NCBI GenBank assembly: GCA_964505885.1
Contig: CAZDKB010000001.1
Location: 26,908 to 74,220 of the forward strand
DNA from: an uncultured Flavobacterium sp.
Lineage (GTDB): Bacteria > Bacteroidota > Bacteroidia > Flavobacteriales > Flavobacteriaceae
Reading direction: 5' to 3'
DNA: 47,313 nucleotides
Shown: positions 5,924 to 38,426 of the stretch, one piece after another
Layout: the number at the start of each line of letters is the position of its first letter
Position numbering within the stretch: position 1 is the stretch's first letter
Notes under the pieces: generated by a model
The model's database searches: none
What the model was told of the DNA's origin: nothing
What the model saw: only the letters and a program-made list of their open reading frames with translations
Program-made: the position numbers and the translations under genes

Positions 5924-6796
5924 TCACATGTTAATATTTTTGGATCGGTGAGTTCTTTTTATTGCATAGTCATTTTTCCAATCGATCCATCTTTGACCTC
6001 TCAATCTTCTCATTAGATTATCTACGGATCGCATGATAACAATATTATAGATCGCCTTGCTTAAATTCACTGGGTTTCTTGCGATAGCTCTTAGACTCAT
6101 AGAAAATCCTGGTGTGATGTATCTCATATAATGCCAATAACCTTCAGGCATATATAAAACATTTCCATGTTCTAGATCAGCAACATAGCCCTTCGCATTT
6201 TTTAAGGCTGGCCATTTGTCAAAGTCAGGTTCTGCAAAATTGATATCCTCTCTTGTAATTAAAGAGTTTGGAATCTTATATAAGTATTTGTTCTGCTTTT
6301 GATCGAACAAAATACATTGCTTTTTACCTTCAAAATGGAAATGAAAAATATTCGCTAGATCTATATCGTAATGCATGAACGTGAAAGAGTCCTTTCCACC
6401 AAAGAAAAGCATTGGTAGTCCTTTCATCAGCTTTAATCCAAAATCTGGGAAAGAAAAATCCTTTTGAAGTTGAGGTACTTCTTTTAAAATATTCCAAAGG
6501 AAGATCCTGTATTTTGTAGGTTCTTTTTTTAAGAGGTCAACATACTCACTCATTTTCATTTTGGCATGAGGTTCGTTGAAACCATCTTTATAGTCAACCG
6601 GCCTATCATCATATAAAGGCACAGTCTTATCTCCTGCAATTTCTTTCATATAATCCAGTGACCATTTGGAATATGCAGGACAATCCTCAATAAACCTCTC
6701 AATAATGACCGGTTTTTGAGGTTTGAAGTAGTTCTTAATAAACTCTTCTTTTGTAATTGTTTTTACTCTATCAACAGCAATTAAATTCAAGCTCAT
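5924..6796 (-). CDS. JmjC/cupin-like Fe(II)/2-oxoglutarate dioxygenase
   Basis: KPVII, WSLDY, HYD...WH facial triad (HxD...H), G-K-C-I-L-F cupin strand; own TACATTTG at 6815-6822. Confidence 0.85.
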   Translation of the reverse strand: MSLNLIAVDRVKTITKEEFIKNYFKPQKPVIIERFIEDCPAYSKWSLDYMKEIAGDKTVPLYDDRPVDYKDGFNEPHAKMKMSEYVDLLKKEPTKYRIFLWNILKEVPQLQKDFSFPDFGLKLMKGLPMLFFGGKDSFTFMHYDIDLANIFHFHFEGKKQCILFDQKQNKYLYKIPNSLITREDINFAEPDFDKWPALKNAKGYVADLEHGNVLYMPEGYWHYMRYITPGFSMSLRAIARNPVNLSKAIYNIVIMRSVDNLMRRLRGQRWIDWKNDYAIKRTHRSKNINM

Positions 6797-6902: not shown

Positions 6903-8000
6903 CTAAACCTTTACTTCTTTTGCCTTTTGTTTGGCTTCTTCGTTTCTTTCAATCGTATGACCTGGTCTAGACCATTTTGGTTTTTCACCTAAAGATTCAT
7001 ATTGAGAATCTTCTGCTTCCACTGTTTTTGGCTGCATTTTTTTGATGAATGGCTTTTGAGGATTTAATCCTAATAGTTTGAACATCTCCATATCTTCGTT
7101 TACATCTGGATTTGGAGTGGTCAATAATTTATCTCCCGCAAAGATAGAATTCGCACCAGCAAAGAAACACATAGCTTGCCCTTCTCTACTCATTTCTGTC
7201 CTACCCGCAGAAAGTCTAACCTGAGTTTCTGGCATAACAATTCTGGTAGTTGCCACCATACGGATCATATCCCAAATTTCGACAGGATGTTGGTCTTCTA
7301 ATGGAGTACCTTCAACCGCTACTAAAGCATTAATTGGAACAGATTCTGGTTGCGGGTTTAATGTTGCAAGGGCAACTAACATTCCAGCTCTATCTTCTTC
7401 TTTTTCTCCCATTCCAATTATTCCACCTGAACAAACTGTTACATTGGTCTTACGAACATTGTCAATCGTTTCTAGACGATCTTCAAATCCTCTTGTTGAG
7501 ATTACTTCTTTATAATATTCCTCAGATGAATCTAAGTTGTGATTATAGGCGTACAATCCTGCTTCAGCCAAACGATGAGCTTGATTCTCTGTTAGCATTC
7601 CTAAAGTACAACAAACTTCCATATCCAATTTATTGATGGTTCTAACCATCTCTAATACTTGGTCAAACTCAGGACCATCTTTCACGTTTCTCCAAGCTGC
7701 TCCCATGCACACTCTTGAGCTTCCAGAAGCTTTTGCTCTTAGGGCTTGAGCTTTTACATGTGGAACTGTCATGAGATCGTTTCCTTCAATGTCCGTATGA
7801 TATCTTGCCGCTTGCGGACAATAACCGCAATCTTCAGGACAACCTCCTGTTTTTATGGATAATAAGGTAGATACTTGAACCGTATTTGGATCGTGATGTT
7901 TTCTATGAATCGTTGCCGCTTCGTAAAGCAGGTCCATCAAAGGTTTATTGTAAATCTCTAAGATCTCTTCCTTTGTCCAATTGTGTCTGGTGTTGCCCAT
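6903..8000 (-). CDS. bioB: Biotin synthase (radical SAM)
   Basis: CPEDCGYCPQ, YNHNLD, VCSGGI, SVPIN, RLSAGR, GANSIF motifs. Confidence 0.98.
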   Translation of the reverse strand: MGNTRHNWTKEEILEIYNKPLMDLLYEAATIHRKHHDPNTVQVSTLLSIKTGGCPEDCGYCPQAARYHTDIEGNDLMTVPHVKAQALRAKASGSSRVCMGAAWRNVKDGPEFDQVLEMVRTINKLDMEVCCTLGMLTENQAHRLAEAGLYAYNHNLDSSEEYYKEVISTRGFEDRLETIDNVRKTNVTVCSGGIIGMGEKEEDRAGMLVALATLNPQPESVPINALVAVEGTPLEDQHPVEIWDMIRMVATTRIVMPETQVRLSAGRTEMSREGQAMCFFAGANSIFAGDKLLTTPNPDVNEDMEMFKLLGLNPQKPFIKKMQPKTVEAEDSQYESLGEKPKWSRPGHTIERNEEAKQKAKEVKV

Positions 8001-8046: not shown

Positions 8047-9171
8047 TTACTCTTTATTTTTTCCTGAATGATTCACCAATTGCCTACCTAATTCGGCAAG
8101 GAACGGAATCCCTATTTCATCATACTCATACTGATCATCGTTGAAGATCTGATTTTCATTTACATGAATCACAGCAGTAATGATATATTCCTTCTGAGTT
8201 CTGTCATTAACAATATACGCAGTATCTATCAAGTAGCCATAGGCATAGCCCACTTTATTGAAAATATGAATGTCTTTTGGCTTTTTATCTGTTGGAAGAT
8301 TATCCCCTAAAATTAGAAATTTCACATAGTTGTCTGGGTATACCTCTGGGTCCTTGCCATACTGTCTAGGAACCAATCCCATAGTATTGATCAGACCAAT
8401 TCTCTCACTTGGTTTTAATTTAAACCTTTGATCCTTTGGAAAGGTATTCGGAAAAATCAATCTTTTTACAATATTATGCAGCGAACGAGCTGGCATATAA
8501 TTCTTTTTTGAAAAGTCTTTTGGTTCATTTACAAGTTGATCGTCTTCCATATAACCTTTTCCCTTTTTTATACGTTCAAGATCCAAAGATTCAATAGGTT
8601 CATTCTCTCTTTGTACTAGAGTATAAGTAGAATCATTCGTTTTAAAAACAAATGATTTGCTAGTCAAATTGTCTGCGTCTGGAGTCGATAATCGATGTGC
8701 AAATCTTCCTTTGATGCCTCTAGCTTTCATTCGATCGTTTAATTCATCTTTCCCTACAAACTCAAAGACCCTATTGTATGATTCATTATCGCTTAAAAAG
8801 ATAGATTTTCTGATTTCATCACTAAGATTGGTTTCAATGCTATCGTTCTCCATTTGAAAAGGATTGTATCTACCAAATCTTTTAAACTCTGTGATCTTTT
8901 CTAAGGCGAATATAGCAGCAGGTAATTTTACCGAACTTGCAGGATAGAAGTATACATCATCATCCACATTGTATTCGTAATCATTGAAGGTAATATTTTG
9001 ATCACCTTGCCTGTTGACTTCTGTAAATAGTATTTGAACCTCATATTTATCAGGATCACTCATTACTTTTTTGATCTTTGGAAGATCTGATGCTAAGACG
9101 ATATCTATTGGAGTTGGTTCTTTACAGCCGATAAAAGCGAATAAAACAAGAAGAACTGAGGCGAATCTCAT
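8047..9171 (-). CDS. Class A beta-lactamase-like serine hydrolase lipoprotein
   Basis: Lipobox FIGC; SxxK (PASSVK), SDN, KVG motifs; start moved to MRFAS. Confidence 0.8.
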   Translation of the reverse strand: MRFASVLLVLFAFIGCKEPTPIDIVLASDLPKIKKVMSDPDKYEVQILFTEVNRQGDQNITFNDYEYNVDDDVYFYPASSVKLPAAIFALEKITEFKRFGRYNPFQMENDSIETNLSDEIRKSIFLSDNESYNRVFEFVGKDELNDRMKARGIKGRFAHRLSTPDADNLTSKSFVFKTNDSTYTLVQRENEPIESLDLERIKKGKGYMEDDQLVNEPKDFSKKNYMPARSLHNIVKRLIFPNTFPKDQRFKLKPSERIGLINTMGLVPRQYGKDPEVYPDNYVKFLILGDNLPTDKKPKDIHIFNKVGYAYGYLIDTAYIVNDRTQKEYIITAVIHVNENQIFNDDQYEYDEIGIPFLAELGRQLVNHSGKNKE

Positions 9172-9252
9172 AAACAAAAATTGGGTTTGAATGAGCAATA
9201 TATCAATTCTTTTACAAAGCAGAAAAATGGTTTAAAAAAGAATTTTCAAGGA

Positions 9253-10428
9253 TTATTTCGCAAGCAAAATAGAAACTGCATTTCCGCCAAAACCAACGGC
9301 GTTTACAAGAACTTTTTGAATTTTTGAGGGTTTGTTTTGCTCCGTTCCAAATGGAACGCGAATTACCTGTTCGTTTTGGATCATTCTAATGGCTAAATCT
9401 AAACTTAATAATCCTGAAGCTCCAAAAGTATGCCCCAACTTCCATTTGTTAGTAGTCAAGAAAGGAAGGTTATCACCGAAAATCTTTTGAATGGCCTTGT
9501 ACTCCGATTCGTCTCCCTTAATCGTTCCAGGGGCATGCATAACAACAGCATCTATTTCATTGGGATTAATATCGGAAATCGCCATTTTCATGGATCTTTG
9601 GAAGCATTCTGCTTCAGCAGTGATAGAGGTATTATGTTCTAAAATCTCTGTTGCATATCCTAAACCAATAATCTTTGCCAATGCCTCTTCCGAATCTCCT
9701 TCTTCAATACAAATTGCAGATGCACCTTCACCCAACACCATTGTGTTTCTTTTCTTTTGAAGGTCTAAAGCCCGACATGGAAATAAACCTTCGGTTGTAC
9801 CTCCTCTTGATTTTGATGATGCATAAATCTTCATCGCCTTCATCTGAGCAATGGTAAATTCGGTCAAAGAAGCCTCTGTTCCACCAACCAAAAACTTATC
9901 CGTCATACCAGATCGAATCCAAGCTATACCATTCAATAAAGAGTGTAAGGCTGTTGAGCAAGTAATAGAATGTGAAATATCCGGTCCTTTGGTCTGTAAA
10001 TCGTGGGCTATCCATGATGAGATATTTCCCAAGGTTGTTGTTGGAGAGCTTAATGTTGATGCTTTATGACCTGCAAGAAACTCGTCGTAATACTTCTCAA
10101 AAAGTTGAGTGGCTCCACGGGAAGAGCCAAAATTAACTCCAAAGCTAGACTCTGTATTCCAGCCAGCATCTTCAACAGCTTTTCTAGAAACATAGATGCC
10201 ATAAAGAACAGAGCTGTCTAGTTTTTTATACTTTGAATCAGAGTTCCTGAGCTCAGTGATTTCATTTTGTACTTTTTCCGGCAGCTCCGCAACCCATGCC
10301 TCAAAGTGTTCAAATTGCTTCTTTGTCAAATGATGATCGTCATTCAAATAATGATCCCAAATCTCGTTTGGTATATTTCCTAAGGCAGATATAGATGCTA
10401 AAGAAATTATTGAAATCGGTTTGTTCAT
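9253..10428 (-). CDS. FabF/FabB-like beta-ketoacyl synthase embedded in the biotin cluster
   Basis: Cys-His-His triad (ITCST, MHAPGT, KWKLGH), GEGA, GFGG; start MNKP; TATTTTTG at 10449-10456. Confidence 0.9.
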   Translation of the reverse strand: MNKPISIISLASISALGNIPNEIWDHYLNDDHHLTKKQFEHFEAWVAELPEKVQNEITELRNSDSKYKKLDSSVLYGIYVSRKAVEDAGWNTESSFGVNFGSSRGATQLFEKYYDEFLAGHKASTLSSPTTTLGNISSWIAHDLQTKGPDISHSITCSTALHSLLNGIAWIRSGMTDKFLVGGTEASLTEFTIAQMKAMKIYASSKSRGGTTEGLFPCRALDLQKKRNTMVLGEGASAICIEEGDSEEALAKIIGLGYATEILEHNTSITAEAECFQRSMKMAISDINPNEIDAVVMHAPGTIKGDESEYKAIQKIFGDNLPFLTTNKWKLGHTFGASGLLSLDLAIRMIQNEQVIRVPFGTEQNKPSKIQKVLVNAVGFGGNAVSILLAK

Positions 10429-10526
10429 TTTGGAGAATTCTCGGGCCACAAAAATAATTCAACTATAAGGATTAGCCATAAAAACTAGTGAAATATATTT
10501 TGTTATATTCATCCAAAATATTGAAA

Positions 10527-10949
10527 ATGGAAGAACAAATTCATCAAAGTTGGTTTAAGAGAAATTGGAAATGGTTTGTGCCTACTTTAGGGTGCGGAAC
10601 GATCATCATATTATTCGTAGTGCTCGCAATTACTGTGGTCTCTGGAGTTACCAATATGATTACTAATTCAGAACCATCTCAGCATGCTTTTGACTTGGCT
10701 TCCAAAAATGAAAGAGTCATTGAAATCATTGGAATTCCAATAGAAAAAGATGGCACAACCAGAGGGAACTTTCAATTTAGCGATACGGATGGTAGTGCTA
10801 TGGATATGCAAATTCCAATAAAAGGCCCTAGAGGAAGTGGAACTTTAGTTATTGTTGGAAACAAGTTTGAAGGAGAGGAATGGTCTTATTCTAAACTCCA
10901 TATCATCATTTCTGAGTCTGAGGAAAAGATCGAGCTCAAAGAGAATTAA
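10527..10949 (+). CDS. Coa1-family (cytochrome oxidase assembly factor 1-like) membrane protein
   Basis: SWFKRNWKW N-terminus, single TM, IPIKGPRGSG motif; start moved to MEEQ. Confidence 0.75.
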   Translation: MEEQIHQSWFKRNWKWFVPTLGCGTIIILFVVLAITVVSGVTNMITNSEPSQHAFDLASKNERVIEIIGIPIEKDGTTRGNFQFSDTDGSAMDMQIPIKGPRGSGTLVIVGNKFEGEEWSYSKLHIIISESEEKIELKEN

Positions 10950-12211
10950 ACGATATCTAAAGCTTCTTCCATTACTTGATAGACCTTCTGAAGTTCGTCT
11001 TGGGAGATTACATATGGAACTTGTAAATACAAGGTGTTTCCTAAGGGTCTTAAAAAGACACCTCTGTCCATAAAGAACTTTAGTAGCTTATCTCTGAGTC
11101 CACCATAACGTTCTGTTTCTGTATTAAGATCTAAGGCGAAAATAATTCCGATATGTCTAGTTGCTTTTACCTTTGGATGAGATGAAATTCTTTTGCCAAA
11201 TTCTTCATGTGATATGCTAATCTCTTTGATCTGAAGCTGTATACAATCTGTTTGCAATAACTCAATCCCCGCTAAAGCTGCAGAACAAGCCACAGGATTG
11301 GCAGAATAAGTATGACAATGAAAGAATCCTTTAGCGATATCATTGCTTAAAAAAGCTTCATAAATGGCCTCTGTACACGAGGTAATCGCCATCGGCAATA
11401 ATCCCGCTGTTAACGCCTTACTCAAACAAATGATATCCGGTTTCGTATCAACATAATCCGAAGCAAAGTTCTTACCCGTTTTTCCAAACCCTGTCATTAC
11501 TTCATCCGCAATGGTAAGTACATCATTGGCTTTACAGAATTTAAGAATCTCATTCAGATCTTCCGCTTCATGGATCTTCATTCCAGCGGCACCTTGAACC
11601 AAGGGTTCATAAATAAATCCTGCAATGGATTCATTGGAAATATGCGCTTCCAGAAGCTGAAGGATCTCTTCTAAATTCTCTCCATTAGGAACGGGAATTC
11701 GCTTTACCTCCATTAAAAAATCTTCAAACGGACCGTTATAAACAGATAATCCAGAAACGCTCATAGCGCCAAATGTGTCGCCATGAAATCCGTTTTTAAA
11801 AGCAATAAAGGTACTTCTCTTTTCACCTCTATTAAAGTGGTATTGAAGTGCCATTTTGATACTGGATTCAACGGCCGTAGAACCGTTATCATTAAAGAAA
11901 ATTCGGTTTTGTCCTTTAGGTAAAATCTTGATCAGTTCTTCAGAAAGTCGCACTGCAGGTTCATGCGTGAAATCGCTGAACATAACCTGATCTAGTTGCT
12001 GCATTTGTTCATAGACCTTCGATGTAATATACTCGTTACAATGACCAAAAACACAGGTGTACCAAGAAGAGATTGCATCGATGTATTCATTTCCATTTTC
12101 ATCGGTGAGAATGCATCCCTTAGCTCTTACAATCGCTAAACTTTCTGGATTTAGCTGATGTTGTTTTAGCGGATGCCACAAATGCTTTTTGTCTCTTTCT
12201 TGTAAATTCAT
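10946..12211 (-). CDS. bioA: 7,8-diaminopelargonic acid aminotransferase
   Basis: WHP, SSW, HGDTFG, EPLVQGA, IADEVMTGFG, PLP lysine (LSKALT), LRPLGN. Confidence 0.95.
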   Translation of the reverse strand: MNLQERDKKHLWHPLKQHQLNPESLAIVRAKGCILTDENGNEYIDAISSWYTCVFGHCNEYITSKVYEQMQQLDQVMFSDFTHEPAVRLSEELIKILPKGQNRIFFNDNGSTAVESSIKMALQYHFNRGEKRSTFIAFKNGFHGDTFGAMSVSGLSVYNGPFEDFLMEVKRIPVPNGENLEEILQLLEAHISNESIAGFIYEPLVQGAAGMKIHEAEDLNEILKFCKANDVLTIADEVMTGFGKTGKNFASDYVDTKPDIICLSKALTAGLLPMAITSCTEAIYEAFLSNDIAKGFFHCHTYSANPVACSAALAGIELLQTDCIQLQIKEISISHEEFGKRISSHPKVKATRHIGIIFALDLNTETERYGGLRDKLLKFFMDRGVFLRPLGNTLYLQVPYVISQDELQKVYQVMEEALDIV

Positions 12212-12274: not shown

Positions 12275-12889
12275 CTACAATTTGTCCCTAAATGAATCTG
12301 CGTATTCTTTGATCACATTTTGATCAAAATAGGGTTCATCATCAATTCTTCCTAAGACCTTAACCCCAGACATTTTTTCAATAATAGATTCTGTAGTTGG
12401 GTGCTCATCACCTGAAAAAATAATAGAAACATCAAATCCTTTTTCCTTTAGTAAGGTTAAAGATAGAAGAGTATGATTAATGCTACCCAAATAATGTCTT
12501 GAAACACAAATCACCTTATATTCTGGTTTGATGACATCCAAAATCGTATCCTGATCATTCAATGGAACCAATAAACCACCAGCACCTTCAATTACCAAAT
12601 GATTCTTTGTTGTGGGTTCTTTAATATTTTTCAATTCTATCTTCACTCCGTCGATCTCTGCGGATGCATGCGGACTCATAGGAGTTTCTAAGGCATAAGA
12701 ATTGGGATGAAAAACCGATTTTGAATTCGATACCATTGACTTCACCTTATCTGAATCCGAAAAATGTAAATCTCCAGATTGCACAGGTTTCCAATAGTCG
12801 GCCTCCAAGGCTTCAGTGATAATTGCTGAAGCAATGGTCTTACCTACCTCAGTTGAAATTCCGGTAATAAAATATTTCTTCTGTTCCAT
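12275..12889 (-). CDS. bioD: Dethiobiotin synthase
   Basis: TGISTEVGKT P-loop, WKPVQSG, SPH, EGAGG, LGSINH. Confidence 0.97.
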   Translation of the reverse strand: MEQKKYFITGISTEVGKTIASAIITEALEADYWKPVQSGDLHFSDSDKVKSMVSNSKSVFHPNSYALETPMSPHASAEIDGVKIELKNIKEPTTKNHLVIEGAGGLLVPLNDQDTILDVIKPEYKVICVSRHYLGSINHTLLSLTLLKEKGFDVSIIFSGDEHPTTESIIEKMSGVKVLGRIDDEPYFDQNVIKEYADSFRDKL

Positions 12890-14020
12890 TCAGGATACAA
12901 AAATACGAAGCAAGCCTAAGACATCAGTTATCTCTTCAAAAGAATTATAGGCATGGAGACAAATTCGTATTCGCTCTTCTCCTTCAGGAACTGTAGGTGA
13001 TAAAATTGGCTTCACATCAAAACCTTGTTCTTGAAGATCTTTAGCAATTGATTTTACATTTGAATTACCCGAAATCAAACAACAATGTATAGCAGAATCA
13101 CTCTGAATAAATTTTTCACTAAGGTTAAGTCTATCCAATTCTTGCTTAAAAAACTTAATGTTTCTGCGAAGTTTATGTTGATTTTGAGAATGAATCATCT
13201 CTTGATAACTGAACAAAATAGTTGAAAGAGAATGAGGAGGAAGTCCTGTTGTATAAATAAAACTACGGGCAAAGTTTACGAGATAAGACCTTAATTCGGA
13301 TGAGCCCAAAATCGCAGAACCATGGCAACCTAAAGCTTTGCCAAAGGTGATAATTCTAGCAAATATCTGTTTATTGAGTTCTTGTGCCAATCCAATTCCC
13401 TTCTCGCCAAAAACTCCCAGAGCATGAGCTTCATCAATTACAAGAAATACGTTAAACTCATTCGCTAGGTTTACCAGTTTTTCAAGATTGGGTGAATCTC
13501 CATCCATAGAAAAGACAGATTCTGTAATGATATAAACCGTATCTGATTCATCGAATTTGTTTAGCAATTCTTCTAAATGTTCTAGATCATTATGACGGAA
13601 TTTATAGGCTTTTGCATTATTCATTTGGATTCCATCTCGAATGGAAGCATGAGATAATTCGTCAAACAAGATTACATCTCCGCGTTGAGGAACTGATGAA
13701 AAAAAACCAATATTGGCATCATAACCTGAGTTGAAGATTAAAGACGCTTCAACATTGTGAAACTCAGATAAAAAATCTTCAACTTCATTAAAGAGTTGAT
13801 GGTTTCCAGAGATCAATCTAGACCCGGTAGCTCCATTGTTTTGCAAATCAATTTCAATCAAATACTCATGGGCTCTTTGAAAAACATTCTCATCCTGAGA
13901 TAAACCTAAATAATCATTAGAAGAAAAATCAACTCTTTCTCCTGCTGAAGGAAGTTTCCTCAAAGAGTCGTTCTCTTCTCTATCTCTAAGTTTCTTCTGA
14001 AGTTTTTCCGGTAGATTCAT
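12890..14020 (-). CDS. bioF: 8-amino-7-oxononanoate synthase
   Basis: FSSNDYLGL, GSRLISG, SGYDAN, HASI, FSMDGD, DEAH, TFGKA; abuts bioD. Confidence 0.93.
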   Translation of the reverse strand: MNLPEKLQKKLRDREENDSLRKLPSAGERVDFSSNDYLGLSQDENVFQRAHEYLIEIDLQNNGATGSRLISGNHQLFNEVEDFLSEFHNVEASLIFNSGYDANIGFFSSVPQRGDVILFDELSHASIRDGIQMNNAKAYKFRHNDLEHLEELLNKFDESDTVYIITESVFSMDGDSPNLEKLVNLANEFNVFLVIDEAHALGVFGEKGIGLAQELNKQIFARIITFGKALGCHGSAILGSSELRSYLVNFARSFIYTTGLPPHSLSTILFSYQEMIHSQNQHKLRRNIKFFKQELDRLNLSEKFIQSDSAIHCCLISGNSNVKSIAKDLQEQGFDVKPILSPTVPEGEERIRICLHAYNSFEEITDVLGLLRIFVS

Positions 14021-18465: not shown

Positions 18466-20586
18466 ATGAAGACAATCATCACATCAATCGCTTTATTATT
18501 CTTTGTTTCAATATCAATTCAAAGCCAAGATTTTCAAAAAATAGATTCTATAGTTAATTCCAAGGTTCAACCAGATCATCCAGGAATTGCTGTGGGTATT
18601 ATTCAAGACGGTAAGATCATTTATGAGAAATATCGCGGACTCTCAAATCTTCAACATCAAATTGCATTTGATGAAAAGACCCGATCGAACATTGCCTCTA
18701 CTGCAAAGCAATTTACCGCGCTAATGATTTTAAAACTCTCCTATGAAAACAAGCTCAAATTAGAAGATGATATTAGAAAATATCTTCCGAATCTTTATCC
18801 AACTGTGAAGGAAGAGATCAAGATCAGGAACTTGTTAAACCATACAAGTGGAATTAGAGATTATGTGGAATTGATGAGTCTGGAAGGACCTGTTTGGTGG
18901 AAGCGATTTGGGTTGGATAATGATGATGTTTTAGCCTTATTAGAAAAGCAACAAGATCTTGGGTTTACTCCAGAATCATATAAAAACTACAGCAACTCTA
19001 ATTATAACCTTTTAGCAGAAATCATTGAGAGAGTATCTGGTAAAGGTTTTAACGAATATTCTAAAGACTTCTTTCAAAACCTGGGAATGAATGAAACCTC
19101 GTTTGTAGAAAGATATATGAGAGTTATTCCCAATAGAGCCAACCCATATTCTGATTGGGGACGAGGTGAATGGTGGGAAGCTCCAACGGTAACTAAAACC
19201 AATGGTGAAGGGTTTTTATACACAACCTTAAAAGATCAATTGATCTTTGAAAAAGCAATTCAAAATGCGACTTATAATAAAGATGTATTATTAATTGAAA
19301 GTCAGAAACCCATCCCAAACTCTAAGATCACACATTACGGATTTGGTCTTGAACTTTATGATAAACTAGGTCATACGGCCGTCCATCATTCCGGAGGAAC
19401 CTTCGGGTTTCATTCTCAAGTCTATAGATTTCCAGAACATAAGCTCACCATATTTATCATGAGCAATAATGGAAACATCAGTAGTAATTTGATCGCCCAG
19501 GAAATTGGACGACTATTACTTCCTCCTTCAACAAAAAAGCCAGCATATGATTCTAGATACAATCAAAATATGGTCTCCTCAGATAGAATACAAATTATCG
19601 GACAATATCGTTCTCCAAAAGGTCGACTCACTAGAATTGTGAAACAAGATGGGAAGCTATACTTCAGACAAAATAAATATTTCAGAATTGAGCTTATTTC
19701 TGAAGAAGAGAACAAATATCACTTCTCTTATGATCCGTCTGATAAGGTAATCTTCTACGAAAATGAGATGGTCTTATACGAAGCCAATGGAGATGTGACT
19801 CAGTTTGAAAGGGTAAGAACTGAAGCTGCAACTTTGGTAGATCTTGAAGGATTTGTAGGAAAATATTTCAATCCAGAATTAAAGTTAGAGTTTGAATTAA
19901 AGCTGAATAAGGATAAGGAGTTAGAACTCGCCTTTAATGGAGGTAATGAAATCGAGAAAGTAACCGTATTTAATAGAAACGAATTCCTTGCCTATGAGAG
20001 TTATGCTTTTGAAGCACTAAGAGATCCTTTTGATAGAATAACCGAGATCAGATTAGATTATGATAGAGCTCTGAATATTGGGTTCCAAAAGAAAACCAAC
20101 TTAAAGTTTCAACCTCAAATCCCAACACAAGGGGGTACCATTCAGGTCTCAACAATCGGATCTAGACATGGGAAAGGCTCTACCATTTTACTCACTAAAA
20201 ACAGACCCAATGGGAACGAGATCTGGTATAAAAGATTTGGCGGAACTAGCTATGACAAAGCAAGTTCTATTCTTGAAACAGAAGATGGTTATTTAATTAT
20301 TGGATCAACAAGTTCTTACGGGGTTGGAAACTACGATATGTTTGTAATCAAAACAGATAAAAACGGGAAAAAGCTATGGCAAAACACCTACGGAAAAGTA
20401 GATAACGATTATGGGTATACGGCTGAAAAAGTAGATAATGGATTTATTATCAAAGGAACAATCCAGCAGTGCAATTCTAGAGATGTCTTAAATCGAAAAT
20501 GCACAGTAAGTGTTTGGTATGTTAATATTGATGCAAATGGTAAGGAGATCTCAAATACCGTATTGGAAGAAATATCCTCTGATTAA
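18466..20586 (+). CDS. Secreted class C beta-lactamase-like serine hydrolase with extra C-terminal domains
   Basis: Signal peptide; SxxK (IASTAK), LLNHTSG, YSN, HSGG; C-terminal propeller-type repeats. Confidence 0.85.
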   Translation: MKTIITSIALLFFVSISIQSQDFQKIDSIVNSKVQPDHPGIAVGIIQDGKIIYEKYRGLSNLQHQIAFDEKTRSNIASTAKQFTALMILKLSYENKLKLEDDIRKYLPNLYPTVKEEIKIRNLLNHTSGIRDYVELMSLEGPVWWKRFGLDNDDVLALLEKQQDLGFTPESYKNYSNSNYNLLAEIIERVSGKGFNEYSKDFFQNLGMNETSFVERYMRVIPNRANPYSDWGRGEWWEAPTVTKTNGEGFLYTTLKDQLIFEKAIQNATYNKDVLLIESQKPIPNSKITHYGFGLELYDKLGHTAVHHSGGTFGFHSQVYRFPEHKLTIFIMSNNGNISSNLIAQEIGRLLLPPSTKKPAYDSRYNQNMVSSDRIQIIGQYRSPKGRLTRIVKQDGKLYFRQNKYFRIELISEEENKYHFSYDPSDKVIFYENEMVLYEANGDVTQFERVRTEAATLVDLEGFVGKYFNPELKLEFELKLNKDKELELAFNGGNEIEKVTVFNRNEFLAYESYAFEALRDPFDRITEIRLDYDRALNIGFQKKTNLKFQPQIPTQGGTIQVSTIGSRHGKGSTILLTKNRPNGNEIWYKRFGGTSYDKASSILETEDGYLIIGSTSSYGVGNYDMFVIKTDKNGKKLWQNTYGKVDNDYGYTAEKVDNGFIIKGTIQQCNSRDVLNRKCTVSVWYVNIDANGKEISNTVLEEISSD

Positions 20587-34146: not shown

Positions 34147-35157
34147 ATGCTTCACGAACTCAAGGACATCATAAGATCTGCTCAGCTTGCTGAACAAAAA
34201 GGAATTAAAACTTGTTTGGCCTCAGTAGTCTCTCTCGATGGATCATCTTATAGAAGACCCGGGGTACGAATGTCTGTGCAGAGTGACGGCAAAATGATTG
34301 GTGCTGTAAGTGGGGGTTGTGTTGAAAAGGAAGTATTGCGTCAGGCGCAATCGGTTTTTGAAACCGATCAACCAAAGTTGATGGTTTACGATGGAAGATA
34401 TCGATTGGGTTGTGAAGGAATCTTATTCATACTGATCGAACCCTTTCAGCCTGAATCTCCTTTTTATGAAGCTTTTGAAGAGCAATGTACTTCACGAAGA
34501 TCATTTAATATTAGTTCAACTTTCTCAAAGGAAGAAAATCATATGCATTATGGAATGTCAACATTTCATTTGAATGAAGCCTCTTTCCCTATGAGAAATC
34601 ATAAAAACACCGAAGACTTTCTTGAAACATTCGAGCAAAAGATCAAGCCGGGATTTAAATTGGTCATTGTAGGATCTGAACATGATGCGGTTCAATTATG
34701 TAAATACGCGTCATCAACGGGTTGGGAGGTCGATATTGTCGCTCCACCTGATGATCCAAAATCGATTGAGAATTTTCCCGGTGCTTCAAACTATTTAGGA
34801 ATAAATGAAGGAGAATTTGGTCAAATAGACTTCGATTCTCAAACAGCTTTGATGTTTATGACTCACAGTTATGTGAAAGACCTAAAGTATTTGTTAGCAA
34901 TTGTAAATAAGGAAGTTCCCTACATCGGATTGTTAGGTCCGAGCAAAAGACGCGAGAAATTGATCAATGAAATGTTGGAGAGGAATGAAGATATTTCAGA
35001 TGAATTTTTTGATCGATTACATGGTCCAGCCGGTATAAACATTGGTGCTGAAACCCCTCAAGAAATCGCAATTTCTATACTTGCTGAAATTTTGACTGTG
35101 ATTAGAAATCAAAAACCCGTATCTTTGAAAGACAAAACCGGTGGAATCCATCAGTAA
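34147..35157 (+). CDS. xdhC: XdhC/CoxI family molybdenum cofactor chaperone
   Basis: GSSYRRPG, SGGCVE, MTHS, YIGLLG, GAETPQEIAISI. Confidence 0.92.
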   Translation: MLHELKDIIRSAQLAEQKGIKTCLASVVSLDGSSYRRPGVRMSVQSDGKMIGAVSGGCVEKEVLRQAQSVFETDQPKLMVYDGRYRLGCEGILFILIEPFQPESPFYEAFEEQCTSRRSFNISSTFSKEENHMHYGMSTFHLNEASFPMRNHKNTEDFLETFEQKIKPGFKLVIVGSEHDAVQLCKYASSTGWEVDIVAPPDDPKSIENFPGASNYLGINEGEFGQIDFDSQTALMFMTHSYVKDLKYLLAIVNKEVPYIGLLGPSKRREKLINEMLERNEDISDEFFDRLHGPAGINIGAETPQEIAISILAEILTVIRNQKPVSLKDKTGGIHQ

Positions 35158-35747
35158 TGTCAAAGACCGCAATTTTAATTCTTGCCGCAGGTGAATCTAA
35201 GCGAATGGGACGACCAAAGCAGTTGTTACCCTATAAGGATTCGACTCTCCTTTTAGAAAAGATCAAACAATTCCAAAGTCTTGATAAAGTGCAAGTTTTC
35301 GTTGTATTGGGTGCATATTTCAAAGATATTTTCCCTTCATTAAGAGAACTTCCTGTGAAGGTTGTAATGAATTCAAACTGGCAAGAAGGAATGGGTAGTT
35401 CATTGAGTAAAGGAATTGAATTGATCCGCAAAAAAGAGATGTTCGATCGAGTTCTGATTACCTTAAGCGATTTACCATTAATGGAATCTTCTCACTATGA
35501 AGATTTGATTGAACTTTCTAAGAGCACCGGAAAGAGAATAATTCAAACAGAATATGATGAAACTTCAGGGGTTCCTGTAATCTTTGATAAATCTTTGTTT
35601 TCCAGCCTTGGGAAACTTAAAAATGAAGAAGGTGCTAAACCTTTAATAGAAAAGTATAAAAAAGAGGTTTTAAAACTGCGTTCTAAAACCCCTTATTTTG
35701 ATGTCGATACCTCTGATGCTTATCAGAAGTTATTAAATCTATCCTAA
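35157..35747 (+). CDS. mocA: Molybdenum cofactor cytidylyltransferase (MocA-like)
   Basis: LAAGESKRMGRPKQLL, GMGSS, DLP, DVDT; coupled to xdhC. Confidence 0.85.
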   Translation: MSKTAILILAAGESKRMGRPKQLLPYKDSTLLLEKIKQFQSLDKVQVFVVLGAYFKDIFPSLRELPVKVVMNSNWQEGMGSSLSKGIELIRKKEMFDRVLITLSDLPLMESSHYEDLIELSKSTGKRIIQTEYDETSGVPVIFDKSLFSSLGKLKNEEGAKPLIEKYKKEVLKLRSKTPYFDVDTSDAYQKLLNLS

Positions 35748-37949
35748 AATCTTTTTTGGCTTTTGATCTAATGCTTGAATAAATGGCTGTTTAAATAGCC
35801 TATTATTTGTTGCGGCATTAATTGCATTGGCAACAGCACCACCCGCTGGAGGTAACCCTGGTTCTCCTAATCCAGTAGGAGATTTTTCGTTTTGCACAAA
35901 ATGTACATCAACTTGAGGGGTTTCCATCATTCTAATCAATCTATAACGATCAAAATTAGTTGCTACAGGAGCACCGTTTTTAAACTGATAATCGCCATAC
36001 ATCGCATGACCAATTCCATCTAAGACTCCTCCTTCTACTTGGTTCTTAGCACCTGTTGGATTGACTACTATTCCACAATCAACAGCCACGGTAACTTTCT
36101 TTACAACAGGGTTTCCATCTACCATTTCTACATCAGCTACCTCAGCCACGTGCGTATTATGACTATAGTATGCGGCAAACCCTTGGAAGGTTCCCTCGGA
36201 TGTTTTTCCCCAATTCGATTTTTCTACGACTAATTTAATGGTGTCTTCCATTCTTTGACCCGAGTATTGGATTCTCTCGTCTGAAGTACCTTTTACTTTT
36301 TGGAGTAATTCTACCAATAATTTTGGATGGTCTTTTCCTAGTTCGTCAGCTAACTCTGCAAAGAAACTTTGCTCTGCAAAAGCTAAGAAATTAGTGTAAG
36401 GAGCTCGCCAAGCACCTGTGGTCATATCACTTACATAATTGCCGGTGCTTACCTTGTAGTTTGGGATACATCCTGCAGGGAAGAAATTTGGAATTAAACC
36501 ATACATATTACCGTTGATAGCGGCTTCCTTCAAATGATATCCGGTGATCTTACCATCTTTGATCGATGCTGCGATTCTGTATTTTATAGCAGGTCTATAG
36601 GTTCCTGCAGCCATATCGTCTTCTCTTGAAAAAACAACCTTCACAGGTTTTTTAATCTTGTCTGAGATCTCAGCAGCTTCTAGAACGAAATCACCGTACA
36701 ATCTTCTTCCAAAACCACCTCCCATACGTGTCATTTCAAGATGAATGTCTTCAGGCTTTTTACCAAATGCCCCAGCAACTAATGAAGCTGCCCATGCAGG
36801 AGTTTGAATAGGTCCAACTAAATGAGCTTTTTCTCCTGTCATATCAGCATAGAAGTTCATTGGTTCCATACAATTATGAGGTAAAAATGGAGATTCATAG
36901 GTTCTCTCGATCACCTTATCTGCTTGAGCAAAGGCCTTCTTTACATTTCCATCTTCACGACGTACATCGAATTTCTTTCCATTCAAGATCTTCATTAGCT
37001 CTTTATCGTGATCTTCGGTACTTTCAGGTTTTCCTTCATATTCCCATTGAGCTTCAAGGGCTTTTTTGCCTTTCATTGCCGCCCATGTGCTTGTAGCGAT
37101 AACCGCTACCTTATCTACCACACGAGTGAAGTTCACTTGGCCTTTAAGTGTTGCAAGCTTCTCTCCAAACTGAACAACATCGATGACTCCATTGACAGCT
37201 CTTGCTTTCGAATCATCAAAGGTTTTTAATTTCTGACCAAAAGCGGGTGGTCTCAACACGGAAGCATACACCATTCCTTCGGCTTTATAATCCAATCCAA
37301 ACAATGGTTTTCCTGTGGTAATTTTATCAAGATCAACATTTCTAGCATCTTGTCCAATAATCGTGTACTCAGAAGGTTCTTTTAATTTTACATTTTCAGG
37401 AACTTCCAATCCAGCTGCTTCTTTTACAACTTCTCCATAACCTAAGGTATCACCATTCGCATTTGTAATCACTCCTTGAGATGCTGAACAAGTTGAGGAA
37501 TCAACTCCCCATTTTGCAGCGGCAGCATTTACCAACATTTGTTTCGCCGTAGCTCCTGTTTGACGCAAAGCATCCCAACCGCTTCTAATCGACTGGCTTC
37601 CTCCAGCTACTTGTCTTTTGAAATTGACCATGTCCAGATCTCCCTGGGCAACATTTACCATATCCCATTTTACATCTAATTCTTCTGCAATGATCATCGG
37701 CATTGAAGTCTTAACTCCTTGACCAATTTCTGGATTAGGAGAAAAAATGGTTACATAACCTTCATCAGAAATTTTAATAAAGGCGTTGAAATCGTTAAAG
37801 TTCAATTTCGAAATATCAACTGGGGGTTTTGCCTCGGGTTTACATGCTGTGAAAAGATTGAATCCAATCAACATACCTCCTCCAGCAAGGGCTGAGGTTC
37901 TTAAAAAGTTTCTTCTGCTAAATTCTAATGAATTATTTTGAGCTTTCAT
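35739..37949 (-). CDS. Xanthine dehydrogenase family molybdopterin subunit (IorB-like), Tat-exported
   Basis: SRRNFL Tat motif; EIGQG, AGGSQS, GGGFGRR, GAWRAP, GLGEPG. Confidence 0.92.
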   Translation of the reverse strand: MKAQNNSLEFSRRNFLRTSALAGGGMLIGFNLFTACKPEAKPPVDISKLNFNDFNAFIKISDEGYVTIFSPNPEIGQGVKTSMPMIIAEELDVKWDMVNVAQGDLDMVNFKRQVAGGSQSIRSGWDALRQTGATAKQMLVNAAAAKWGVDSSTCSASQGVITNANGDTLGYGEVVKEAAGLEVPENVKLKEPSEYTIIGQDARNVDLDKITTGKPLFGLDYKAEGMVYASVLRPPAFGQKLKTFDDSKARAVNGVIDVVQFGEKLATLKGQVNFTRVVDKVAVIATSTWAAMKGKKALEAQWEYEGKPESTEDHDKELMKILNGKKFDVRREDGNVKKAFAQADKVIERTYESPFLPHNCMEPMNFYADMTGEKAHLVGPIQTPAWAASLVAGAFGKKPEDIHLEMTRMGGGFGRRLYGDFVLEAAEISDKIKKPVKVVFSREDDMAAGTYRPAIKYRIAASIKDGKITGYHLKEAAINGNMYGLIPNFFPAGCIPNYKVSTGNYVSDMTTGAWRAPYTNFLAFAEQSFFAELADELGKDHPKLLVELLQKVKGTSDERIQYSGQRMEDTIKLVVEKSNWGKTSEGTFQGFAAYYSHNTHVAEVADVEMVDGNPVVKKVTVAVDCGIVVNPTGAKNQVEGGVLDGIGHAMYGDYQFKNGAPVATNFDRYRLIRMMETPQVDVHFVQNEKSPTGLGEPGLPPAGGAVANAINAATNNRLFKQPFIQALDQKPKKILG

Positions 37950-37967
37950 AATTACTACTATTATTGA

Positions 37968-38426
37968 TTAGGAATTCTTAGCAGCCGTTTCAACCGCCTT
38001 TTCTATTCTGTTATACGAAGCACATCTACAAATATTTCCATGCATTGCCTCCCTGATCTCCTCTCGAGTTGGGTTTGGATTTTCTTTCAAAAAAGCGGAT
38101 GCTGTCATAATCTGACCTGCTTGGCAATATCCACATTGAGGAACATCAATCTCTTTCCAAGCTTCCTGAACAGGATGAGATCCATCTTCTGAAAGTCCTT
38201 CAATTGTAGTGATCGATTCGTCAATGGCCCTTGATACTGGAAGTGAGCAGCTTCTCATGGCAACACCTCCTACATGAACTGTACACGCTCCACATTGAGC
38301 AATACCGCATCCAAACTTGGTGCCGACCATGTCAAGTTCGTCTCTAAGAACCCACAATAACGGTGTATCAGCATCTACATTCACAGAAACCGACTTACCA
38401 TTAACTTTTAATGTATAATCTGGCAT
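37968..38426 (-). CDS. (2Fe-2S)-binding small subunit (IorA-like)
   Basis: [25 protein letters not shown]. Confidence 0.95.

What the first reader, a model, noticed from the sequence alone, without database searches (positions are those of the whole stretch)
9253..10428. FabF-like ketosynthase inside the bio cluster with Arg at the acyl-pocket gate: candidate new pimelate-synthesis route
Seen: a stand-alone Cys-His-His ketosynthase lies between bioA and bioB on the same strand, with no ACP/fab genes nearby and no bioC/H/G/W/Z/I/E in the window. Its GSSRGA (Arg codon 10117-10119, 53 residues before the catalytic Cys at 9958-9960) aligns by eye to E. coli FabF GSGIGG, putting Arg at Ile108. Known: Ile108 lines the FabF acyl tunnel and affects chain length, and alphaproteobacterial BioZ (FabH family) uses a pocket Arg to bind the free carboxylate of glutaryl-CoA. 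Inference: this is a convergent FabF-family BioZ analogue that elongates an unmasked omega-carboxyacyl primer (malonyl or glutaryl) towards pimeloyl-ACP, avoiding BioC/BioH methyl masking.
Basis: partly seen in the sequence, partly recalled or inferred. Interest (0 to 1): 0.88.

Follow-up and report, generated by a model that had tools for sequence, protein, structure and literature searches.

The report
Arginine-pocket ketosynthase for flavobacterial biotin
A divergent fatty-acid-type condensing enzyme with an invariant arginine at the gate of its acyl pocket sits among the biotin genes of this flavobacterium and accompanies them almost without exception across its family, so it likely builds biotin's seven-carbon precursor by an untested route that would skip the usual methyl-ester disguise.

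Summary
Observation confirmed; interpretation well supported by genomics, untested biochemically. Window 9253-10428(-) encodes a 391-aa FabF-fold Cys-His-His ketosynthase (KS). Arg104 aligns with FabF Ile108. It is present in 80/80 close and 148/148 distant homologues covering the site, and in 0/34 ordinary ketosynthases. Several other pocket positions have also become polar. In 130 near-complete genomes of the family (one per genus), 84 carry the KS and 85 carry bioD. The one exception has an imported bioC-bioG operon. No BioE or BioW was found. The two bioB-only genomes lack the KS, and the neighbouring cupin does not track biotin genes. Best reading: the KS condenses an unmasked omega-carboxy-acyl primer with malonyl-ACP towards pimeloyl-ACP, convergent with BioZ. 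Three KS genomes lack markers of glutaryl-CoA catabolism, which slightly favours a malonyl-primed two-round route. Limits: Arg orientation was not measured, and BioZ's own pocket Arg is only partly required. Many other Bacteroidia have bioD with no identified route. No paper on this family was found in the open-access library; Rodionov 2004 proposed a similar idea for Desulfovibrio. The scan noted this family before on other genomes.

The parts
9253..10428 (-). Arg-pocket FabF-fold ketosynthase, 391 aa (candidate pimeloyl-precursor synthase)
   Evidence: AF2 pLDDT 96.9; FabF fold
10117..10119 (-). Arg104 codon, at the FabF Ile108 back-gate position
   Evidence: invariant; absent in 34 controls
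10033..10047 (-). S128-P-T-T131-T132 motif, polar where ordinary ketosynthases are mostly aliphatic
9958..9960 (-). Catalytic Cys157
   Evidence: 149 of 149 covering
9844..9846 (-). Gln195 (Gly in 33 of 34 controls), next to Met196 at the FabF Phe202 position
9535..9537 (-). Catalytic His298
9430..9447 (-). Lys328 and second catalytic His333
12890..14020 (-). bioF, 8-amino-7-oxononanoate synthase (consumer of the pimeloyl thioester)
   Evidence: TIGR00858 best hit, 345 bits, under the cut-off of 426
12275..12889 (-). bioD, dethiobiotin synthase
10946..12211 (-). bioA, DAPA aminotransferase
6903..8000 (-). bioB, biotin synthase
10488..10949 (+). Antisense Coa1-like membrane gene; variable insert, not part of the pathway
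   Evidence: 19 of 80 loci
8047..9198 (-). Beta-lactamase2-family gene; variable insert
   Evidence: 3 of 80 loci
5924..6796 (-). Cupin_8 gene after bioB; syntenic neighbour that does not track biotin genes

Best explanation
This gene encodes a FabF-fold Cys-His-His ketosynthase with an arginine at the acyl-pocket gate that travels with the biotin genes, and it likely supplies biotin's pimeloyl precursor by condensing an unmasked omega-carboxy-acyl primer with malonyl-ACP. Inferred steps: a glutaryl group is loaded on Cys157 with its free carboxylate held by Arg104 and the polar Ser/Thr/Gln lining. His298/His333 drive decarboxylative condensation to 3-oxopimeloyl-ACP. Housekeeping reductases and dehydratase give pimeloyl-ACP for BioF, and the capped pocket stops further elongation. 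For the source of glutaryl I lean about 55:45 towards the same enzyme making it in a first round from malonyl, over catabolic glutaryl-CoA as in BioZ. Shown: sequence, predicted fold, conservation, linkage and distribution. Inferred: all chemistry.
For: Linkage: bioF, bioD, bioA each in 61 of 63 full-flank loci among the best 80 of 329 hits. Distribution in 130 genera: KS 84, bioD 85, KS without bioD 0 of 45. The exception G304 has bioB-A-F-bioG-bioC-bioD and is the only genome with BioC over cut-off. BioE 0 of 130 (the query rings in 7 of 71 other genomes); BioW 0 of 130. The KS is kept when the cluster splits: more than 10 kb from bioD or on another contig in 7 of 84, and apart from both bioD and bioB in 2. 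Both bioB-only genomes lack it, which places it upstream of dethiobiotin. In another family one genome has bioA-KS and another has bioE in its bio cluster. Arg104 invariant: 80/80, 148/148 covering, 239/239 by motif; one clade, SH-aLRT 100, quick tree. Ile108-Phe202 lies at about C7-C8 of a bound chain and glutaryl methyl ester equals a C7 acid in length (PMC9006962, passages). E. coli FabG/FabA/FabI process the unmasked C7 product of BioZ (PMC7645780). For two rounds: KS genomes G303, G325, G401 (99% complete) lack a GcdH orthologue, kynureninase, CaiB, saccharopine dehydrogenase and a lysine 6-transaminase over cut-off. None of 17 conclusively scored Flavobacteriaceae isolates needed biotin (PMC12448291 Dataset S1, 30 of 31 rows seen; their genomes not checked).
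Against: No enzyme or genetic data. The own genome is 76% complete. BioC absence rests on one HMM, and a divergent Tam- or BioT-like methyltransferase is not excluded. Fifteen bioD-positive genomes of other families in the class have neither KS nor BioE, and the 10 bioD regions I inspected show no linked bioC; bioC was not searched genome-wide there. So unknown routes exist, and missing known genes is weaker evidence. Genera are not independent and block deletion of an operon removes passengers too. FabF gate residues differ (Asn404 position is Ala/Cys, Asp265 mostly Glu); N404A cuts FabF to 2-3% (bioRxiv 10.1101/2021.02.13.431092, passages), though 7 of 34 controls share the N-then-Cys pattern. 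Against two rounds: GcdH is present in 81 of 84 KS genomes; BioZ does not use malonyl-CoA; no dedicated reductase or dehydratase is co-conserved.
Confidence: 0.72

Rival explanations
1. The enzyme is biotin-specific but does other chemistry: it elongates a methyl-masked primer made by an unrecognised methyltransferase, or moves or releases a pimeloyl group (transacylation between ACP and CoA, or reverse cleavage of a longer dicarboxyl chain) for BioF.
For: The profile shows a biotin role, not a reaction. Altered gate residues. Many unassigned methyltransferases (15 sub-cut-off hits in the own genome) and hydrolases exist.
Against: The whole decarboxylation set (His298, Lys328, His333, Phe380) is invariant, which a pure transacylase would not need (inference). 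No methyltransferase or esterase is co-conserved in 80 loci. An invariant cation suits a free acid better than an ester (inference).
Confidence: 0.18
2. The KS is a passenger with an unrelated lipid or secondary-metabolite role, lost with the operon by block deletion.
For: Other genes sit in the cluster: DUF2007 in 52, a Band-7 gene in 27, a SET-domain gene in 23 of 80 loci.
Against: Never found without bioD (0 of 45), even where unlinked; replaced by bioC-bioG in G304; still in a bio cluster in two distant lineages at 32% and 43% identity.
Confidence: 0.05
3. The Cupin_8 oxygenase after bioB makes pimelate by oxidative cleavage, like BioE or BioI.
For: Follows bioB in 59 of 80 loci.
Against: Present in 33 of 45 bioD-negative genomes and not found in 9 of 85 bioD-positive ones.
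Confidence: 0.03

Closest known systems
BioZ, 3-oxopimeloyl-ACP synthase of alpha-proteobacteria (PMC7645780, PMC8024396; passages read)
   Same: Condensing enzyme inside the bio cluster, in genomes lacking bioC/bioH; polar or basic residues proposed to hold a free glutaryl carboxylate.
   Different: BioZ is FabH-type (Cys-His-Asn, about 328 aa) and uses glutaryl-CoA supplied through CaiB. This protein is FabF-type (Cys-His-His); BioZ chains were not among the hits shown in its PDB searches; no CaiB was found in 5 genomes tested.
FabF / KAS II (E. coli, Listeria, Bacillus)
   Same: Fold (Foldseek TM 0.85-0.89; VIA Z 53.7, rmsd 2.1, 375 aligned), catalytic triad, GFGG loop.
   Different: 19-27% identity; 147.5 bits against the TIGR03150 cut-off of 493.75; back gate Ile/Phe replaced by Arg/Met; separate clade; a conventional FabF lies elsewhere beside an rnc-like gene.
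Extended biotin operon of Desulfovibrio (Rodionov 2004, PMC545781; one passage read)
   Same: A 3-oxoacyl-ACP synthase in a bio operon lacking bioC/H/G/W, proposed as a new pimeloyl route.
   Different: That operon also carries ACP, reductase and dehydratase and a predicted BirA site. Here the KS is alone and no conserved BirA-type site was seen. Homology to the Desulfovibrio KS was not tested.
BioE-BioL of Weeksellaceae (PMC12704756, PMC12915131; passages read)
   Same: Fills the same metabolic slot in related Bacteroidota; never found with the KS in the genomes searched.
   Different: Diiron oxygenase cleaving long-chain acyl thioesters; unrelated protein.
AmcF-AmcG of cispentacin synthesis (PMC10698177; passages read)
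   Same: Stand-alone KS that elongates an omega-carboxy C5 primer (2-oxoglutaryl-ACP) once, a precedent for a free carboxylate in this fold.
   Different: Heterodimer with its own ACP and loading enzyme; only a weak match here (66.5 bits against a cut-off of 325).

Membership tests
KAS I/II (FabB/FabF-type) superfamily | Thiolase fold with both ketoacyl-synt domains | tested here: met
KAS I/II (FabB/FabF-type) superfamily | Cys-His-His triad, conserved Lys, GFGG gate | tested here: met
   C157, H298, K328, H333, G379-G382
FabF proper (housekeeping KAS II) | Score over the TIGR03150 equivalog cut-off | tested here: not met
   147.5 against 493.75
FabF proper (housekeeping KAS II) | Hydrophobic Ile108-Phe202 back gate | tested here: not met
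   Arg104 / Met196
BioZ | FabH-type protein with Cys-His-Asn triad | tested here: not met
   Cys-His-His; FabF chains head all structure searches
BioZ | Located in the bio cluster of genomes lacking bioC/bioH | tested here: met
   bioH under cut-off in 5 of 5 genomes tested
BioZ | Condenses glutaryl-CoA with malonyl-ACP; complements E. coli bioC/bioH mutants | not testable with these tools
   needs bench assay
BioZ | Pocket residues contact the primer carboxylate | tested here: inconclusive
   Arg maps to the gate by alignment; no coordinates or docking available
Desulfovibrio extended bio operon | KS together with dedicated ACP, reductase and dehydratase | tested here: not met
   none co-conserved in 80 loci; SDR in 5 of 80
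Desulfovibrio extended bio operon | Orthology of the KS and the same Arg | not tested
   no Desulfovibrio sequence was fetched

The most novel reading that the evidence does not exclude
One ketosynthase builds pimeloyl-ACP from three malonyl units in two rounds with the carboxylate left free: the 'three malonates' route that was set aside because fatty-acid pockets are hydrophobic (PMC7645780, introduction). It would need neither methyl masking, nor lysine catabolism, nor oxygen, and would be the main start of biotin synthesis in Flavobacteriaceae.
Probability: 0.4. Interest if true: 0.85.

Novelty: new variant of a known kind. Interest (0 to 1): 0.72.

Why it matters
About two thirds of Flavobacteriaceae genera sampled carry the late biotin genes (85 of 130), and flavobacteria are described as primary marine biotin producers (PMC9561691, passages). 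Yet the routes listed in a 2025 survey (BioC-BioH, BioI-BioW, BioZ, BioE; PMC12704756, passages) were not found in them here. A single gene now fills that gap and can be tested with one plasmid in existing E. coli mutants. It would be a second, independent recruitment of a condensing enzyme to biotin synthesis, show how a FabF pocket is rebuilt for dicarboxylic chains, and correct genome-based predictions of biotin prototrophy.

Tried and rejected
Cupin_8 as the pimelate enzyme: rejected. Adjacent SDR as a dedicated ketoreductase: rejected, 5 of 80 loci. Hidden BioZ: two of the own genome's four FabH-domain proteins were searched against PDB; one scores 259 bits on FabH against 142 on BioZ, the other shows no BioZ chain at 1e-20; the other two were scanned only against NCBIfam; not tested family-wide. 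P450/BioI: 0 of 5 genomes. BioG in the own genome: none. Shared regulatory site: a BirA-type palindrome (pattern recalled, not from a call) and a spaced-palindrome count upstream of five genes gave nothing conserved; promoter and terminator scans were at chance level. The metagenome scan returned only close relatives (57-73%; 30 of 31 long loci bio-linked), so it added no distant context. Cluster look-up of 10 distant members gave no organism names; a search from one of them named Saprospiraceae members, whose gene context I did not see. Atlas search gave only generic names, Bacteroidota. The careful tree did not finish; the quick tree is quoted. No complex prediction was run. Literature: searches found no paper on this family; some searches served background. 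The library is open-access only, and supplements of the BioE papers, which hold a KEGG-wide survey, were not read.

Full report
Observation. The ORF at 9253-10428 on the minus strand gives a 391-aa protein with both ketoacyl-synthase domains. HMMER places Arg104 on Ile109 of Listeria FabF, which equals E. coli Ile108 (PMC5206705, passages). The gene order is bioF-bioD-bioA-KS-bioB. An antisense Coa1-like gene lies between bioA and KS and a beta-lactamase-like gene between KS and bioB; both are variable inserts, in 19 and 3 of 80 related loci. A conventional FabF lies on another contig.

Protein. The AlphaFold2 model (146-row alignment) has mean pLDDT 96.9 and matches FabF chains best. Identity is only 19-27%, and the score is far under the FabF equivalog cut-off. 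Arg104 is present in 80 of 80 genome loci and in 148 of 148 covering sequences among the best 150 of the 50%-cluster representatives, at 36-73% identity. By motif it is in 239 of 239 further proteins of 330 aa or more (2 shorter ones dropped). Comparing 26 family rows (24 distinct) with 34 other ketosynthases from the same searches, Arg104 is 26/26 against 0/34. Thr107, Ser128, Thr132 and Gln195 are each 26/26 and Thr156 is 25/26, where controls are mostly aliphatic, Ala or Gly. The family is one side of a branch with SH-aLRT 100 in a quick 41-row tree. At least 8000 clusters at 90% identity pass 1e-70; those of the best 120 that carry a name are called only generic beta-ketoacyl synthases. 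The Ile108-Phe202 gate sits at about C7-C8 of a bound chain, and I108F limits chain length (PMC9006962, passages). An Arg there would be placed to cap a glutaryl carboxylate; this is inference from alignment, as no coordinates could be measured.

Linkage and distribution. In the best 80 of 329 genome hits, all Flavobacteriaceae by title, bioA, bioD, bioF and bioB lie within 8 kb in 74, 72, 71 and 70. Among the 63 full-length loci the counts are 61, 61, 61 and 57. In 130 genomes of the family, one per genus, at least 97% complete, the KS is in 84, bioD in 85 and bioB in 87. All 84 have both bioD and bioB, and none of the 45 bioD-negative genomes has the KS. The exception, G304, carries a divergent bioB-A-F-bioG-bioC-bioD operon and is the only one with BioC over the cut-off. 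BioW was found in 0 of 130. A BioE-like query was found in 0 of 130 but rings in 7 of 71 other genomes. I identified that query by its place beside a MocR regulator and bioF, not by a database name. The two bioB-only genomes have a TonB receptor and a MocR regulator beside bioB and no KS. The KS is kept where it is separated from bioD (7 of 84, some at contig breaks) or from both bioD and bioB (2 of 84). In an independent phylum sample of 300, the same 16 of 22 family genomes have KS and bioD. Outside the family only 2 of 145 bioD-positive genomes have the KS, both in a bio cluster. Genera are related, so these counts are not independent events.

Results against the reading. Fifteen bioD-positive genomes of other families in the class have neither KS nor BioE, and 10 inspected bioD regions show no linked bioC, so further unknown routes exist. 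BioZ's R147A mutant keeps partial activity (PMC8024396). Gate-loop residues differ from FabF. Glu111 is as invariant as Arg104 and could pair with it. The own genome is 76% complete. No shared regulatory site was found.

Mechanism. I commit to condensation of an unmasked omega-carboxy-acyl primer with malonyl-ACP to give 3-oxopimeloyl-ACP, finished by housekeeping Fab enzymes and used by BioF (0.72). The own genome has a GcdH-like gene, kynureninase and a saccharopine dehydrogenase-family gene, and 81 of 84 KS genomes have the GcdH orthologue, so glutaryl-CoA is a plausible primer. But G303, G325 and G401 keep KS, bioD and bioB without that orthologue (best other acyl-CoA dehydrogenases 30-39% identical). 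They also lack kynureninase, CaiB, saccharopine dehydrogenase and a lysine 6-transaminase over cut-off. Elongating ketosynthases normally take ACP-bound primers (established knowledge). This tips me slightly towards two rounds from malonyl, although BioZ does not accept malonyl-CoA (PMC7645780) and three genomes are a small sample. Physiology fits: of 30 Flavobacteriaceae rows seen (31 exist) in Dataset S1 of PMC12448291, 12 were dropped by the authors, 1 was inconclusive, 12 were prototrophs and 5 needed B1 or B12; none needed biotin. I did not check those strains for the gene.

Comparison and novelty. It works like BioZ but is not a member (Cys-His-His, FabF fold). It belongs to the KAS I/II superfamily but is not FabF proper. 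Rodionov 2004 proposed a KS-containing pimeloyl route for Desulfovibrio with its own ACP, reductase and dehydratase (PMC545781, one passage); homology was not tested. AmcF shows that this fold can take a free-carboxyl C5 primer (PMC10698177, passages). Searches of the open-access library found no paper on this family. Term searches of the main text of the two BioE papers found no mention of FabF; their supplements were not read. Earlier notes of this scan describe the same family on other genomes. They are not evidence; I tested linkage, conservation, distribution and the cupin claim myself. Verdict: a real, widespread, undescribed candidate for the missing first step of biotin synthesis in Flavobacteriaceae; new variant of a known kind; interest 0.72.

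Noticed in passing
L165:60-4629 (G323) and L166:7441-11996 (G395): In both bioB-only genomes a BtuB-like TonB receptor precedes bioB, with a divergent MocR regulator (in G323, 38% identical to the regulator beside bioE). Candidate dethiobiotin or biotin uptake module under BioL-like control.
   Followed up: partly
L119-L123, L125, L126, L128, L130, L131: bioD-positive genomes of other families in the class with neither this KS, nor BioE, nor a linked bioC; some have a full bioBFDA operon. Possibly a further unknown pimelate route.
   Followed up: partly
window 5924-6796: Cupin_8 gene conserved after bioB in 59 of 80 loci and present in 109 of 130 family genomes, function unknown, not biotin-specific.
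   Followed up: partly
L105:9352-14775 (G304): A divergent bioB-A-F-bioG-bioC-bioD operon (30-36% identity to the window's genes) stands in place of the native cluster, likely imported.
   Followed up: partly
L006:9192-11210 and similar loci: A 190-aa membrane gene plus a Band-7/SPFH gene often sit between KS and bioB (28 and 27 of 80 loci); DUF2007 in 52 and a SET-domain gene in 23 of 80.
   Followed up: no
L106:9907-11256 (G384): Family KS of about 450 aa, about 60 residues longer than usual, with catalytic motifs intact.
   Followed up: no
L174:1839-8956 (own genome, contig C7): Small cluster with a type III PKS-like gene, an SDR-like gene, a divergent KS and what look by eye like dehydratase, ACP and PPTase genes.
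   Followed up: no
window 34147-38426: XdhC, MobA-like, molybdopterin-binding and 2Fe-2S genes of a xanthine-dehydrogenase-type molybdoenzyme.
   Followed up: no
window 8047-9198 and 18466-20586: Two beta-lactamase-fold genes (PF13354, PF00144); function not examined.
   Followed up: no
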